Of a stretch of 64,000 nt of DNA, positions 1 to 33,696 are shown one piece after another. The position numbers were made by a program, and so were the translations under genes. The stretch is from Candidatus Zixiibacteriota bacterium. GTDB taxonomy: Bacteria > Zixibacteria > MSB-5A5 > GN15 > FEB-12. The DNA lies in assembly GCA_029860345.1 (NCBI GenBank), contig JAOUBJ010000004.1, positions 202,943 through 266,942 on the forward strand, given 5' to 3'. How positions within the stretch are numbered: the first letter of the stretch is position 1; every line of letters starts with the position of its first letter. The notes under the pieces were generated by a model. The model searched no databases. It was given only the letters and a program-made list of their open reading frames with translations, and was not told the origin of the DNA.

Positions 1-2430
1 ATTGGCCCTGGTGTACTTGTCAGGATGAGAGGCAATAACCTGGTACAGGCTTTCCGCCTTGGCATACTCTTGCCTGAACATATAGACGTTTCCCAGTTGC
101 CAGAGACTGGCCACAAAGTCAGGCTTTAGCTCCAGAGCTTTTTCGAAGGAGGCAATAGCGCTGTCTAGCATTCCGTTTAAGGCATAGATTGCGCCCCTGT
201 TATCGTAGGCATTGTGCTTTTCCGGTGCTGATTCCATGTACATGTTGGCTGCCCAGAGAGCCTTGTCAGTATCTCCAATCCACTCGTAGATATAAGCGAG
301 GTCATTGTACGCTTGCTTGTCGACCTGGACGGCCAGCGAACATTGCATGATAGCGTCCCCGAATCTATCCATGCTTCTCGCCAAAAAATAAGCATATCTG
401 GTATATGATTCGCTTCTATTCGGCTCGATCTCAATCAGGCGCTGATAGAGTTCCTCCGCCTCCTGCCATTCAGAGGACTGTACTTTTCTCCGCACTCTGC
501 TCTCAAGAAGGGGAATCGCCATCGGGTTTAACTCAAAGGCTATATCTTCCTCTTGGATTTGTTCGGGATACCTGGCCATAGCTCCTAAAAGTCCAGAATA
601 CCAGAGGTGCGCCCAGGCATAACCGGGATTAAGCTCAATAGCACGCGAGTATTCCTTTTCGGCTCCCTCCAGATCATTCTCATCCCACAGGATATTTCCC
701 ATTGAGGCGTGGGTTTCAGCCAGGCCTTCATCAAGCCCAATAGCTATTTCCGCCGCCGCTCGGGCGTTCGACAGAGCTTCTGTTTTCGTGACAGTTCCGG
801 TCACATAGATGTATTCCCGAAGGGTGGACCAGGCATCGGCCAGTCCGGAGTGCGCCAGGGCATAGTTGGAGTCGAACTCAATGGCCATTTCAAAATACTC
901 AATGGCCTTTCTTATATCACTCTCGGTTCGCTTATTCCACAGGTGGCGGCCGCGCGTGTAGTAATTGTAGGCCTCTATGTTTTCTGTATAGCGGCGGGTA
1001 ATAACTGCCTCGTCCGTGCCGAGCAGTTCAAGTCGCATTGCGGCAACAATGGCTCTGGAAATGTCATCCTGGATATCGAAAACGCTCTCCAATTCTCGGT
1101 CATAAGTCTGCGACCAGAGGTGAGCATCATCGGCGCTATTAATCAACTGTGCCCTGACCCGGATCTGGTTCTCCTCACGTTGAATACTCCCTTCGAGAAC
1201 AGTATTGACCAGTAGGTCCCGACCGATTTTTCTGAGATCCCGGTCCGAATCCTTGTAGCGCATTACCGATGTCATCGAGATGACTTTCAGCTTTTCCACT
1301 CCGGACAGTCGGCCGATAATGGCATCCGTCATACCGTCGCAGAAGTACTCCTGGTCTTTGTCCGGACTGAAATCTCGAAAGGGCAGAACGGCGATAGAGT
1401 TCTTCCAACCGGTTTCATCCAAAGTCGTCAGCCCGGACTCCTCCCCGATCATAGTGAAGTCCGAAATCAAAAATCCGGAAACCACAAGTATCGCAATAAT
1501 GGCGAGCCCGCCTACGGCAAGCGGCCATCTCTTCTGACGGCCAGCAGCGGCGGACTTATAGCTCTCGGTGGGAGCAACCAGACGCTTGAGATCACTGATG
1601 ACACCGGAGGCACTCTGGTATCGCATTGACGGGTCTTTCTCCAACAACTTGGCGACGGTGCGTTGGAGTTCATCCGGGATGTCTGACTTATATCGGGCCA
1701 GCGGTTCCGGGTTATTCTGTGTGATGGCTTTCAGAGTTGCCGCTTCGTTATCCTTCTCAAACGGTGTGCGATTGGCTATCAACTCATAAAGCACAACACC
1801 AAGAGAAAACAAGTCTGACCTGTGATCAACTTCCTGCCCCTGTACTTGCTCAGGCGACATGTATTGTACTGTTCCGAGTGTCGACCCGGTTTTGGTGAGA
1901 TGCTCTCCGCCTTGAATGACTGCTAGTCCAAAATCAAGTATTTTCGGTCGACCGTAGGCATCTATTACAATGTTTGAAGGCTTGATATCTCGGTGGACAA
2001 CTTTCTTATCATGTGCAGCACTGAGTCCATCGCAGACTTGTATTGCCAACTCGACTACTCTGTCAATGCCAAGCTCTTTCCCCTTGGCCAGGTCGCGTAG
2101 TGATTGACCCTCCACCAACTCCATGGCAAAAAACGGTCGGCCCCGAAATTCTGAAACTTCATAGATAGTGACAATATTGGGATGATTGAGCTTGGCAGTT
2201 GCTTCAGCTTCACGGATAAAGCGTGCTTTGAAATCATCATCAGAGGAATGTTGCGTCGGCAGGAACTTCAGAGCGACTTTACGAGACAGCTTGCTGTCCT
2301 GGGCCAGGTAGACCTCACCCATTCCACCGGCGCCGATTTTCTCGACGATCCGGTAGTGTGCCACCATTGTTCCGGCAGTCAGAATGACGTGCGTGCGAGT
2401 CCGATCATCATGTGAGTCCTCTGGCGCCAT
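1..2430 (-). CDS. Hanks-type Ser/Thr protein kinase with TM segment and TPR-like C-terminal region; 3' end runs off the window
   Basis: Absent from the ORF track because no stop codon lies inside the window. The minus-strand frame ending at 2430 has no tta/cta/tca triplets in the stretches I checked (1..660, 1790..2430). It starts at ATG (cat 2428..2430): MAPEDSHDDRTRTHVILTAGTMVAHYRIVEKIGAGGMGEVYLAQD..., followed by HRDIKPSN and DFG motifs. The 5' ~150 nt are nearly identical to the other four kinase genes. Confidence 0.8.
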   Translation of the reverse strand, partial: MAPEDSHDDRTRTHVILTAGTMVAHYRIVEKIGAGGMGEVYLAQDSKLSRKVALKFLPTQHSSDDDFKARFIREAEATAKLNHPNIVTIYEVSEFRGRPFFAMELVEGQSLRDLAKGKELGIDRVVELAIQVCDGLSAAHDKKVVHRDIKPSNIVIDAYGRPKILDFGLAVIQGGEHLTKTGSTLGTVQYMSPEQVQGQEVDHRSDLFSLGVVLYELIANRTPFEKDNEAATLKAITQNNPEPLARYKSDIPDELQRTVAKLLEKDPSMRYQSASGVISDLKRLVAPTESYKSAAAGRQKRWPLAVGGLAIIAILVVSGFLISDFTMIGEESGLTTLDETGWKNSIAVLPFRDFSPDKDQEYFCDGMTDAIIGRLSGVEKLKVISMTSVMRYKDSDRDLRKIGRDLLVNTVLEGSIQREENQIRVRAQLINSADDAHLWSQTYDRELESVFDIQDDISRAIVAAMRLELLGTDEAVITRRYTENIEAYNYYTRGRHLWNKRTESDIRKAIEYFEMAIEFDSNYALAHSGLADAWSTLREYIYVTGTVTKTEALSNARAAAEIAIGLDEGLAETHASMGNILWDENDLEGAEKEYSRAIELNPGYAWAHLWYSGLLGAMARYPEQIQEEDIAFELNPMAIPLLESRVRRKVQSSEWQEAEELYQRLIEIEPNRSESYTRYAYFLARSMDRFGDAIMQCSLAVQVDKQAYNDLAYIYEWIGDTDKALWAANMYMESAPEKHNAYDNRGAIYALNGMLDSAIASFEKALELKPDFVASLWQLGNVYMFRQEYAKAESLYQVIASHPDKYTRAN

Positions 2431-32037: not shown

Positions 32038-32445
32038 ATGAATGACAGTTCACCCAAACAAGTGGTCATCTTCCTCGCCCACGCTATAGTCGCGTGGGGG
32101 CTGTGCGGCGCAGTCATGGGAGTCGGGTTGAGTGTCTCGACAGAAGAGACAGCGTTGATCGCGCATCTCGTCGCGGCACCATTCATCGCAGCAGGTGTAT
32201 GGTTCGTATACTTCAAGAAGTTTGCATACACAACACCGGTACAAACGGCTGGGCTGTTTATTGGCTGTGTAATCACCCTCGATGTCCTGATCGTGGCGCT
32301 CTTGATCGAAAAGAGTTTCGATATGTTCAAAAGCCCAATCGGTACATGGATACCGTTCGGGCTGATGTTTGTGGCGATTCTGCTGGTCGGTCGAGTGGCG
32401 GGTAATTCGCCAAGGAAAGATGGATTCCCGCATTCGCGGGAATGA
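32038..32445 (+). CDS. small polytopic membrane protein, unknown function
   Basis: 135 aa with about four hydrophobic spans. The last ~8 codons are encoded by a palindromic repeat module (GGATTCCCGCATTCGCGGGAATGAC). Confidence 0.5.
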   Translation: MNDSSPKQVVIFLAHAIVAWGLCGAVMGVGLSVSTEETALIAHLVAAPFIAAGVWFVYFKKFAYTTPVQTAGLFIGCVITLDVLIVALLIEKSFDMFKSPIGTWIPFGLMFVAILLVGRVAGNSPRKDGFPHSRE

Positions 32446-32589
32446 CAGAAGGCGTGCGAAGCGCAAAAATGCGAATTATCGCCTTCGACGGCGCTCACCT
32501 TTCGACTGCGCTCAGGGGGACAACGTCTGATTTTCAGCGGTTTCGGCCTGCCTGGCTCGTCATCCGGGCCGGTGTTACGATTCAATAGG

Positions 32590-33545
32590 ATGAAGGACAA
32601 AATGGCTATCTAAGGTGGCCATTTTGTACTCGTTCATGTCCTGTCCAGTCACTTCGGTTATTGCCGAATCAAGGGGGTAGAATCTGGTTGGAATACAACC
32701 GGCGCACAAACCGCCGCTAGGCAAAGCTGGGAAGATGATGCTGACAACTCTGACGAAACAACACAACGGCGTTGCGACATCAAAGCACGGAACCGGGGGC
32801 GTTCAACATGGCCGTCGACGGGGGCTGACGGTCTCGAAGTTGAATCCGGAGATAGGGGTGCTTAACCGCTTTTCAGCCAAGGGGGCCGCGGTACGGTTTG
32901 GTCAAAGGAGGCTAGACAGAGGTGATCCTGTGTGGGAGGTAAGCGGCGGTCAAGTCGCAACGAAATCAGGATTCACTTCTGGCGCCAGGGACGGCGGGTG
33001 TGAGGTTATGACCGCAGTACTTTCTAAGTGGGGCGTTGCGGTCAAGCGAAGGGGGGAGGTCGGGACCCGTTGTCGGCTCGGATTCGATCGCAAGAGAGAA
33101 TTCGGTTTGGCTCTCAACGGCCCTCTCTCCCACCTTTTCTTAAACTCAACTGAGCAGCAACATGCTCCAATCCGAAGCGGTGCGGTGACTCTTGGGAGGA
33201 TGAATGTTCTTGGTCGGTGCGGTTTCGGCACTGCATCGGGATCACTACATCCGCCGCTCCGGCCACAATTATGGCAGTCTGGGACTATGACATACAACAG
33301 CTCCAAAAAACGACCAGGGGGAACAGGCCTGTTCGACGTGGGGGCAAAAAGGGTGGCTAACACAGGGGCGTCGTCGGGACAGAAATCGGGTCGTCGTTTG
33401 GGAGCGCGGGTAGACTGGCAGTGTCTGGTGGGCATCAAAAGGGGGACTGACTCGACACAGACCAAAAGGGGGCTGAACGGACAGGATTTCGTTCGTCAAT
33501 AATCCAGACTGAGGTGGGGAGGTCAAGACCCTCCCCACCTCTTGC
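32590..33545 (+). ncRNA. candidate large structured noncoding RNA of unknown class
   Basis: About 1 kb in which the only ORFs are two mutually antisense, Gly/Arg/Pro-rich frames. The plus strand has G excess (hand count over 32761..33480: about 251 G against 170 C). Recurrent A-run+G-run motifs (AAAAGGGGG three times) and many short hairpins are present. The region ends in a perfect 11-bp hairpin at 33512..33540, and a clean plus-strand intrinsic terminator follows at 33643..33678. Confidence 0.3.
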
Positions 33546-33642
33546 TCTATTCGCCCAACTATAAAGTGGAAAAAGTGACTTAAGAGAAAAAAACTTCTTT
33601 GCAGGAATCAGTCTCTCTGATTCCGATCCTCTTGCTGCACGA

Positions 33643-33678
33643 CGCGCGGGTCAACCGGACTTCCCGCGCGTTTTTATT
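33643..33678 (+). terminator. intrinsic terminator (plus strand)
   Basis: CGCGCGGG-12 nt loop-CCCGCGCG followed by TTTTTATT. No plus-strand CDS lies within 1.2 kb upstream. Confidence 0.6.
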
Positions 33679-33696
33679 GTAAGCAGTCGGAAGCGG

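What the first reader, a model, noticed from the sequence alone, without database searches (positions are those of the whole stretch)
32590..33678. About 1 kb without credible coding potential, G-rich on the plus strand, ending in strong hairpins: candidate large structured RNA
- The two long ORFs here (32735..33502 plus strand, 32950..33465 minus strand) are antisense to each other and encode Gly/Arg/Pro-rich low-complexity strings with no RBS.
- The plus strand has a marked G over C excess (hand count about 251 against 170 over 720 nt).
- Purine motifs recur (CAAAAGGGGGACTGA, CAAAAGGGGGCTGAA, GCAAAAAGGGTGG, GCGAAGGGGGGAGG), as does GCGGTCAAG (twice).
- There are many local hairpins, for example AAAATGGC..GCCATTTT at about 32600..32627, GAGAG..CTCTC at 33095..33116, and GTGC-GGTTTCG-GCAC at about 33216.
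- A perfect 11-bp stem lies at 33512..33540.
- The clean plus-strand terminator at 33643..33678 has no plus-strand gene to terminate within 1.2 kb.

I cannot assign it to RNase P, tmRNA, SRP, 6S, group I/II introns or any large ncRNA class I can recall by sequence.
Basis: partly seen in the sequence, partly recalled or inferred. Interest (0 to 1): 0.6.

Follow-up and report, generated by a model that had tools for sequence, protein, structure and literature searches.

The report
New large structured RNA in Zixibacteria
This 1.08-kb stretch is most likely the gene for a large folded RNA of a previously undescribed family found only in a few uncultured sediment bacteria (Zixibacteria), and it oddly keeps a 255-codon reading frame open although the encoded amino acids are under no detectable selection.

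Summary
Window 32598-33678 (+) is a discrete, single-copy unit with G 244 / C 170 over 720 nt. It runs from a 5' stem-loop to an intrinsic terminator.

Evidence that it is a folded plus-strand RNA:
- Full-length relatives at 59-78% identity occur in same-genus MAGs (Candidatus Zixiibacteriota) and in metagenome contigs.
- None of them matches any Rfam family.
- A consensus fold of 220 pairs has 93% of cells paired. Sixty pairs carry compensatory changes, against 33.5±3.3 in shuffles and 16-30 in slid controls.
- G·U pairs point to the plus strand.

Models of the two ends also find ~560-nt, ORF-less forms in a second genus. Forms of ~930-1320 nt carry a CheW-like ORF inserted before the 3' block. 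These sit at one syntenic locus, between a PAS/GAF-LuxR regulator gene and a YgaP/DUF1302/LolA/MMPL operon.

One finding has no explanation yet. The frame 32735..33502 is kept free of stops in all ~1085-nt forms (distinct stop columns 3 vs 41 and 46), and indels preserve the frame. Yet substitutions show no codon periodicity, synonymous changes are not enriched, composition has no period-3 signal, no protein family matches, and no fold is predicted.

Best reading: a new large structured RNA that ribosomes probably traverse. Its function is unknown.

The parts
32598..33678 (+). Whole unit: candidate ~1.08-kb structured RNA gene, from the 5' stem-loop to the end of the terminator T-run
   Evidence: Conservation in 10 relatives starts and ends here. 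It is single copy in the genome. No Rfam match.
32601..32623 (+). 5' terminal stem-loop (AAAAUGGCUAU / loop 5 / GUGGCCAUUUU). It is the first element of the conserved 5' module (32599-32704).
   Evidence: Pair 40-60 changes AU<->UA in 4 sequences, and the asymmetries are G·U only. Model R3 built on this module finds it in genera g1 and g10.
32626..32861 (+). 5' domain closed by the long-range helix 32626-32641 with 32848-32861
   Evidence: 13 pairs, 91% of cells paired, 2 with a double change (helix 2).
32801..32845 (+). Stacked helices 32801-32807/32839-32845 and 32810-32815/32828-32834, presenting the invariant GGGGGC in the loop
   Evidence: Seven of 13 pairs have compensatory changes (helices 8 and 9). 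The invariant run G236-C241 is listed.
32910..32986 (+). Branched hairpin domain (helices 11-15)
   Evidence: Helix 12 has 5 of 6 pairs with a double change. Helices 13-15 have 7 more.
32982..33143 (+). Central domain: GCCAGGGACGGC block, hairpin 33010-33016/33037-33043, and long hairpin 33050-33076/33111-33135 with inner hairpin 33081-33102
   Evidence: Helices 18, 20 and 21 have 12 pairs with a double change. Model R1 scores 126-178 bits in genus g1, with weak hits at the homologous place in G001 and G007.
33211..33265 (+). Hairpin 33211-33223 / 33253-33265
   Evidence: 13 pairs, 95% of cells paired, 2 with a double change (helix 22).
33324..33382 (+). Nested helices 26-28
   Evidence: Seven pairs with a double change.
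33423..33456 (+). Hairpin carrying CAAAAGGGGGACUGA
   Evidence: Helix 31: 10 pairs, 95% of cells paired, 2 with a double change.
33513..33539 (+). GGUGGGGAGG / CCUCCCCACC hairpin. This is the last element of the core. A recognisably similar GGGAGG..CCUCCC hairpin is present in G007, G018, G100 and G166.
   Evidence: Helix 33: 98% of cells paired, 3 pairs with a double change.
33547..33598 (+). Variable spacer. It is the site where relatives carry a CheW-like ORF (G001, G007, G100).
   Evidence: Unconserved columns 995-1050 of A2.
33599..33678 (+). 3' module: hairpin 33605-33611/33617-33623, near-invariant AUCCUCUUGCUGCAC (33626-33640), and intrinsic terminator (stem 33642-33651/33662-33671, conserved ACCGGAC loop, T-run)
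   Evidence: Alignment A7. The terminator stem has 4 pairs with a double change (helix 35). Model R2 finds the module in g1 and g10.
32735..33502 (+). 255-codon frame kept free of stops but without amino-acid constraint
   Evidence: Stops per frame are 0-1 against 5-15. Substitutions by codon position are flat. No period-3 signal in composition. pLDDT 37. No Pfam hit and no distant relatives.

Best explanation
Window 32598-33678 (+) is an independent gene for a ~1.08-kb highly folded RNA. It belongs to an undescribed family found so far only in one family of Candidatus Zixiibacteriota (two genera).

Shown:
- It is a discrete conserved unit with its own intrinsic terminator.
- About 35 helices are supported, many by compensatory changes and G·U pairs that only make sense on the plus strand.
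- Conserved 5' and 3' modules frame an interior that ranges from ~400 to ~1200 nt among relatives.
- The locus is conserved, downstream of a PAS/GAF-LuxR regulator gene and convergent with a YgaP/DUF1302/LolA/MMPL operon.

Inferred:
- The molecule acts as RNA (scaffold or regulator). It is probably transcribed under control of the neighbouring regulator, and its G-rich strands serve mainly as helix arms, not as free binding sites.
- In the ~1085-nt lineage, ribosomes most likely run through the interior. The 255-codon frame is kept open because a premature stop would harm the transcript (loss of ribosome cover, polarity or decay), not because the polypeptide matters.
For: - Boundaries and conservation: 59-78% identity over the full length, with unrelated flanks.
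- Structure: 220 pairs, 93.1% of cells paired. Sixty pairs and 148 cells have a double change, against 33.5±3.3 and 58.5 in 500 shuffles (0/500) and 16-30 pairs in slid controls.
- Cross-validation: a fold predicted from five sequences keeps 70% of its pairs in the held-out G002 and G005, against 35-45% when slid.
- Strand: the plus-strand consensus energy is -201 kcal/mol (220 pairs) against -146 (163 pairs) for the minus strand. There are 375 G·U cells against 52 A·C cells.
- Folding z-scores are -3.2 and -2.4.
- Paired columns are more conserved than unpaired ones.
- Not a conventional gene. Differences by codon position are 120/119/121 (G000 vs G002) and 45/38/38 (close clade). The synonymous fraction is 0.18-0.28, as in the off-frames. 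Period-3 signal is 0.9, against 5.6-39 in neighbouring genes. There is no Pfam hit, only 5 close relatives among 1.84 billion protein representatives, and pLDDT is 37.
- The family extends to forms with no long ORF: G018 and G166 are ~560 nt with at most 76-90 codons open.
- Frame kept open: distinct stop columns are 3/41/46. Resampling expects 3.5 stops in frame 0, and P(0) is 0.03 per sequence. The 150-nt deletion in L045 is in frame.
- The start region is predicted unpaired and A-rich.
Against: - No expression data: the transcript, its 5' end and any translation are unobserved.
- No convincing promoter was found.
- Only about three deep lineages carry the 1085-nt form, so covariation counts overstate independent events, and the tested fold was derived from the same alignment.
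- The stop-free frame and frame-preserving indels are the classical marks of a translated gene.
- The ATG at 32735 is missing in 2 of 11 copies, and the SD is weak, so translation itself is uncertain.
- Four of the ten sequences were found through their called ORF, which biases the ORF count.
- Distribution is narrow: two genera among 47 in the family and 88 sampled in the phylum.
Confidence: 0.6

Rival explanations
1. It is a real protein gene for a fast-evolving, disordered, Gly/Arg-rich basic polypeptide whose function depends only on bulk composition. The RNA structure is a property of its mRNA.
For: - The frame is open in all ~1085-nt copies.
- Indels are multiples of three or compensated, and the 150-nt deletion is in frame.
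- An ATG sits at the same column in 9 of 11 copies, in a region predicted unpaired.
- Gene callers list it in public data.
Against: - There is no excess of third-position or synonymous change at any divergence, even in unpaired columns.
- Composition has no period-3 signal.
- The frame-0 translation has the same composition as the two off-frames.
- pLDDT is 37 and pTM 0.14.
- No family or distant relative exists.
- Nucleotide blocks are invariant at all three codon positions.
- The g10 relatives keep the RNA features but have no long ORF.
Confidence: 0.17
2. It is the leftover of an mRNA: a long structured leader plus 3' UTR of a CheW-like gene that this lineage has lost. It would be cis-regulatory in origin and now be decaying or idle.
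For: - G001/G007 (genus g1) and G100 (genus g10) carry a CheW-like ORF between the GGGAGG/CCUCCC hairpin and the 3' module. The Pfam PF01584 hit has E = 1.9e-5, the two ORFs are 38% identical over 94 aa, and there is a third-position excess of 9/7/18.
- That hairpin holds SD-like and ATG sequences in those copies.
Against: - The ORF-less forms in both genera keep the 5' module, the core helices, the 3' block and the terminator, with compensatory changes over 41% divergence. This is not expected of a decaying remnant.
- The core expanded to ~950 nt here, which is far beyond any known leader.
- The frame is kept open.
Confidence: 0.13
3. It is a protein-sequestering sponge RNA of the CsrB/RsmZ kind. 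Its many A-rich-GGGGG motifs would titrate an RNA-binding protein such as CsrA.
For: - There are 9 runs of five or more G, several preceded by A-runs, and no run of five or more C.
- The genome encodes CsrA.
- One invariant GGGGGC sits in a hairpin loop.
Against: - Most G-runs are helix arms paired to pyrimidine-rich arms, with covariation.
- The recurring motif is GGGGGCU, not the ANGGA that CsrA recognises (established knowledge).
- The motifs are not regularly spaced short hairpins.
- No Hfq gene was found.
Confidence: 0.05

Closest known systems
Large 'ornate' bacterial RNAs of unknown function (GOLLD ~800 nt, ROOL ~580 nt, OLE ~610 nt; Rfam families)
   Same: It is a stand-alone, very large, multi-helix RNA with covariation support, no known function and a patchy, narrow distribution. 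It is found mainly in uncultured or environmental genomes.
   Different: - It shows no sequence or structure match to any of them (cmscan).
- At ~1085 nt it is longer.
- It is chromosomal at a syntenic locus, not phage- or tRNA-linked.
- Its interior length varies two-fold among relatives.
- It carries a long frame kept free of stops, which those RNAs are not reported to have (own knowledge).
Dual-function RNAs (RNAIII/hld, SgrS/SgrT, SR1/SR1P)
   Same: It is a structured RNA that also contains an open reading frame.
   Different: - Those ORFs are short (about 26-43 aa), and their peptides are conserved.
- Here the frame is 255 codons, covers 70% of the RNA, and shows no amino-acid constraint.
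CsrB/RsmZ-type sponge RNAs
   Same: A purine motif recurs many times in one RNA, and CsrA is present in the genome.
   Different: The motif lacks the GGA core in most copies, and most copies are paired in long helices. The RNA is three times larger.
Viroid-like or HDV/Obelisk-type RNAs (highly structured ~1-1.7 kb RNA encoding one basic protein)
   Same: It is of similar size, is heavily base-paired, and has one long frame for a basic product.
   Different: - It is encoded in chromosomal DNA at a syntenic site with a terminator.
- It is branched rather than rod-like.
- The product is unconstrained.
- There were no hits in viral contigs.

Membership tests
Any Rfam 15 family (incl. RNase P, tmRNA, SRP, 6S, group I/II introns, GOLLD, ROOL, OLE, HEARO, raiA) | Score at or above the family's gathering threshold with its covariance model | tested here: not met
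   There were 0 matches in the whole window and in six homologous loci. At E <= 10 the region gave only chance-level hits of 13-19 bits to unrelated families.
Conventional protein-coding gene | Reading frame conserved open, with frame-preserving indels | tested here: met
   Stops per frame are 0-1 against 5-15. Distinct stop columns are 3/41/46. The 150-nt deletion is in frame.
Conventional protein-coding gene | Excess of third-position / synonymous substitutions (purifying selection on the protein) | tested here: not met
   Differences by codon position are 120/119/121, 45/38/38 and 49/57/64. The synonymous fraction is 0.18-0.28, equal to the off-frames, and this also holds in unpaired columns.
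Conventional protein-coding gene | Period-3 composition and codon-position base bias like the genome's genes | tested here: not met
   The period-3 signal is 0.9, against 5.6-39 for five neighbouring genes. G at the second codon position is 0.31, against 0.12-0.19.
Conventional protein-coding gene | Recognisable family, distant relatives or a predicted fold | tested here: not met
   There is no Pfam hit. Only close relatives appear in 5.8 billion and 1.84 billion protein sets. pLDDT is 37 and pTM 0.14.
Structured non-coding RNA (generic) | Conserved secondary structure with compensatory changes above controls | tested here: met
   Sixty pairs have a double change, against 33.5±3.3 in shuffles (0/500) and 16-30 in slid controls. 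Held-out lineages keep 70% of pairs, against ~40% when slid.
Structured non-coding RNA (generic) | Own transcription unit: promoter, discrete transcript, terminator | tested here: inconclusive
   The intrinsic terminator is conserved with covariation. No convincing sigma-70 promoter was found. No RNA-seq is available.
CsrB/RsmZ-type sponge | Many GGA/ANGGA motifs exposed in loops of short hairpins | tested here: not met
   The recurring motif is A-rich + GGGGGCU. Most copies are helix arms, and only one invariant GGGGGC lies in a loop.
Palindromic DNA operator (for the 5' stem-loop) | Symmetric half-sites as DNA, and further copies in the genome | tested here: not met
   The asymmetries are G·U-compatible only. 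The genome has 11 hits at <= 2 mismatches, against 24 for the reversed control.

The most novel reading that the evidence does not exclude
This is a new class of 'translated scaffold RNA'. In it, a large, functionally folded RNA is built or kept stable only while ribosomes run through a long frame whose product is irrelevant. Selection would then act on the RNA fold and on the absence of stops, but not on the codons.
Probability: 0.2. Interest if true: 0.85.

Novelty: new variant of a known kind. Interest (0 to 1): 0.62.

Why it matters
- Large structured bacterial RNAs are rare, and each has opened new biology. A 1.1-kb example would be among the largest known outside rRNA, and the first from the uncultured phylum Zixibacteria.
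- It has modular architecture: fixed ends, a variable interior and a spacer that accepts a gene. Together with its fixed place next to a PAS/GAF-LuxR regulator, this gives handles for experiments.
- The combination of strong RNA-level selection with a stop-free but otherwise unconstrained 255-codon frame does not fit either 'coding' or 'non-coding'.
- If that combination is real, gene finders and non-coding-RNA screens both misfile such loci. Public data call it a hypothetical protein.

Tried and rejected
- **Rfam.** Searches at gathering and permissive thresholds found nothing relevant.
- **Collection scans.** The 3' block was scanned in genome, metagenome and viral collections. This gave only the known genus plus one metagenome contig (L045). 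The other hits were chance, and viral contigs gave 0.
- **Protein route.** There is no Pfam hit, no distant relatives and no confident fold. hhalign and BLASTP of the ORF against the CheW-like ORF of G007 found no similarity.
- **Minus-strand ORF 32950..33465.** It is not conserved (longest minus-strand frames in relatives are 48-136 codons), and the minus strand folds worse.
- **Sigma-70 promoter scan.** It found nothing convincing upstream of the 5' stem-loop. The A/T-rich -10-like boxes seen by eye are unverified.
- **DNA-operator reading of the 5' palindrome.** Rejected.
- **Internal tandem modules.** Only short motif repeats and two similar hairpin arms were found.
- **Central-domain model R1 across 151 genomes of the phylum.** It hit genus g1 only. 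Its weak hits in G001 and G007 proved real only after the end modules were found there.
- **Single-module weak hits outside family f1.** G137 is the terminator of an unrelated gene. G103 and G170 have a similar stem-loop upstream of porin-like genes but lack the rest. G013, G081, G087, G174 and G193 in family f1, and G032, G063, G075, G107 and G158 outside it, were not examined.
- **Multi-genus alignment of the interiors.** It was too divergent to use.

Full report
**Observation.**
- The two antisense ORFs are 32735..33502 (+) and 32950..33465 (-).
- G exceeds C: 244 against 170 over 32735-33454, and 336 against 261 over the whole stretch. The skew is at the 97th percentile of same-size windows.
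- The purine motifs, the local hairpins, the long stem at 33511-33541 and the plus-strand terminator at 33642-33678 are all present.
- The two halves fold better than dinucleotide shuffles (z = -3.2 and -2.4).
- Just upstream, 32420-32540 holds short REP-like repeats with 40+ copies in the genome. The stretch itself is single copy.

**A discrete conserved unit.**
- BLAST against 40 related genomes found the stretch in five same-genus genomes.
- The translation of the long ORF pulled eight called 'proteins' out of 5.8 billion. The four whose DNA could be fetched align to window 32594-33683 over the full length at 73-78% identity.
- In the 10-sequence alignment A2, conservation begins exactly at the 5' stem-loop (32598) and ends with the terminator T-run. 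The flanks are unrelated.
- Record titles place the genus in Candidatus Zixiibacteriota, as cold-seep MAGs.
- No Rfam family matches the window or six homologous loci.

**RNA structure.**
- RNAalifold on A2 gives 220 pairs in 35 helices.
- 93.1% of cells are standard pairs. Sixty pairs and 148 cells carry changes on both sides. Column shuffles give 33.5±3.3 pairs and 58.5 cells (0 of 500 reach the observed values), and sliding the 3' partners gives 16-30 pairs.
- Because the fold was derived from the same alignment, I re-derived one from the G000 clade alone. The held-out G002 and G005 keep 70% of its pairs, against 35-45% when slid. They keep 52-57% of the pairs in which both sides changed, against 27-46%.
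- Paired columns are more conserved than unpaired ones.
- The plus strand gives -201 kcal/mol and 220 pairs, against -146 and 163 for the minus strand.
- G·U cells outnumber A·C cells 375 to 52. In G000, G exceeds C by 32 in paired columns, which is about the number of its G·U pairs (34). It exceeds C by 41 in unpaired columns, so G·U pairing explains a little under half of the G excess.
- Caveat: the 1085-nt form has only about three deep lineages, so cells are not independent events.

**Coding tests.** By every test of selection on a protein, the long frame is not coding.
- Differences fall evenly on the codon positions: 120/119/121 for G000 vs G002, 45/38/38 variable columns within the close clade, and 49/57/64 to 67/88/86 within the G000 clade.
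- The synonymous fraction (0.18-0.28) and BLOSUM scores are the same as in the two off-frames. The same holds in columns predicted unpaired.
- Composition has no period-3 signal (0.9, against 5.6-39 for five neighbouring genes), and G at the second codon position is 0.31 against 0.12-0.19.
- The translation has the same Gly/Arg-rich basic composition as the off-frame translations.
- There is no Pfam hit. A profile search of 1.84 billion representatives returns only five close relatives. AlphaFold with the 14-sequence alignment gives pLDDT 37 and pTM 0.14.

**The unexplained feature.** The frame is nevertheless kept open.
- Each copy has 0-1 stops in this frame, against 5-15 in each other frame.
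- Over the alignment, distinct stop columns number 3, 41 and 46. The three in frame 0 are the natural ends and one TAG in G005.
- Resampling columns independently reproduces the off-frame counts (11.6 and 11.1 expected, 10.9 and 10.0 seen). It expects 3.5 stops in frame 0, where 0 are seen (P = 0.03 per sequence).
- There are no frame-breaking indels between G000 and the G002 clade over ~700 nt at 41% divergence. G005's indels compensate, and the 150-nt deletion in metagenome contig L045 removes exactly 50 codons.
- Four sequences were found through their called ORF and are biased. The G002 clade, G005 and L045 were found by DNA and are not.
- The ATG at 32735 lies in an A-rich stretch predicted unpaired. 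However, it is absent in 2 of 11 copies and has only a weak SD.

**The family is wider and modular.**
- A weak hit of the central-domain model in G001 and G007 led to a locus that shares the 5' module, the GCCAGGGACGGC block with its following hairpin, G-rich motifs and the 3' module.
- Models of the 3' module (R2) and 5' module (R3) were run over 108 genomes of the family. They find both modules, in order and on one strand, in genus g1 (8 of 10 genomes, G000 included) and genus g10.
- In g10, G018 and G166 are ~560 nt with no frame longer than 76-90 codons. G100 is ~930 nt.
- All forms share this order: a 5' stem-loop, A-rich-G5 motifs, a GGGAGG/CCUCCC hairpin, a variable spacer, (A)UCCUCUUGCUGCAC, and a GC-rich terminator.
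- In G001/G007 and G100 the spacer holds a CheW-like ORF. The evidence is PF01584 at E = 1.9e-5, 38% identity over 94 aa between genera, and a third-position excess of 9/7/18.
- This CheW-like ORF is unrelated to the G000 frame.
- Outside the family only single-module weak hits were seen. One that was checked is a false positive, and two are similar stem-loops upstream of porin-like genes.

**Context.**
- In G018, G100 and G008/G002, a PAS/GAF-LuxR regulator gene lies directly upstream on the same strand.
- In G000, L045, L024, G005 and G018, the unit is convergent with a YgaP-like/DUF1302-like/LolA-like/MMPL operon.
- In G000, the upstream side has been replaced by a BRO-N/DinD-like gene, a membrane-protein gene and REP repeats.
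- The 5' palindrome is not a DNA operator. Its asymmetries are G·U only, and it is not enriched in the genome.

**Reading.**
- The common denominator of all forms is RNA-level conservation outside and inside any ORF. I therefore take the unit to be a structured RNA gene (confidence 0.6).
- Most G-runs are helix arms paired with pyrimidine-rich arms, which argues against a CsrA-type sponge although CsrA is encoded. No Hfq gene was found.
- The open frame is best explained by ribosomes traversing the RNA, with selection against premature stops (polarity, decay or loss of ribosome cover). This is inference only.
- The rivals are a composition-only disordered protein (0.17), a leader/UTR remnant of the CheW-like gene (0.13) and a sponge RNA (0.05).

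**Comparison and novelty.**
- It resembles GOLLD, ROOL and OLE in kind (a large ornate RNA of unknown function) but is not a member of any of them. It is larger, chromosomal and syntenic, and modular.
- It differs from known dual-function RNAs in the length of the frame and the absence of peptide constraint.
- It is a new family. I rate it a new variant of a known kind.
- The stop-free unconstrained frame would be the most surprising feature if confirmed.
- The scan's own index holds no look-alike.

Noticed in passing
window 32420-32540: There are two short REP-like modules (GGATTCCCGCATTCGCGGGAATGAC and a CGACGGCGCTCACC..CGACTGCGCTCAGGGGG unit). They have more than 40 copies spread over the genome's contigs.
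   Followed up: partly
L015 941-1441 (G007), L069 (G001), L080 ~1080-1501 (G100): A CheW-like ORF is inserted in the variable spacer of the RNA locus in three genomes of two genera. The called ORFs (246-247 aa) run in frame from the G-rich RNA core into the domain.
   Followed up: partly
L097 1505-1535 (G103, family f4); L093 ~1570-1600 minus strand (G170): Stem-loops like the 5' module (UUGACUAUnnnnnAUAGUCAA + UUUAUAGC) lie 300-500 nt upstream of genes for porin-like secreted proteins. This may be the same hairpin used as a leader element elsewhere.
   Followed up: no
L021, L023, L024, L010 and relatives: 5-40 nt upstream of the 5' stem-loop: Runs of 5-7 C (for example CCCTCCCCCCCTCCCCCC in L023) precede the unit in most relatives but not in G000. 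They are complementary to the G5 motifs of the RNA.
   Followed up: no
L045 7927-8424 (-): An IS200-like Y1 transposase ORF sits between the DUF1302-like gene and the element. This copy of the element has an exact 150-nt (50-codon) deletion.
   Followed up: partly
L024 1182-2165 (-): An AbiEii toxin-family gene lies directly upstream of the element in one metagenome contig. In G000 the upstream side holds a BRO-N/DinD-like gene. The 5' flank therefore looks like an insertion hotspot.
   Followed up: no
window 33048-33138 and 33511-33543: Two hairpins share nearly the same arms, GA(A/G)G(G/U)GGGGAGGUC ... CCCACCU(U/C)UU. Their pyrimidine arms resemble the anti-Shine-Dalgarno end of 16S rRNA (recalled, not tested).
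   Followed up: no
window 33652-33661 (terminator loop): The loop sequence ACCGGAC of the terminator hairpin is conserved across genus g1, G001 and G007 included, which is unusual for a plain terminator. The genus g10 copies have different loops.
   Followed up: no
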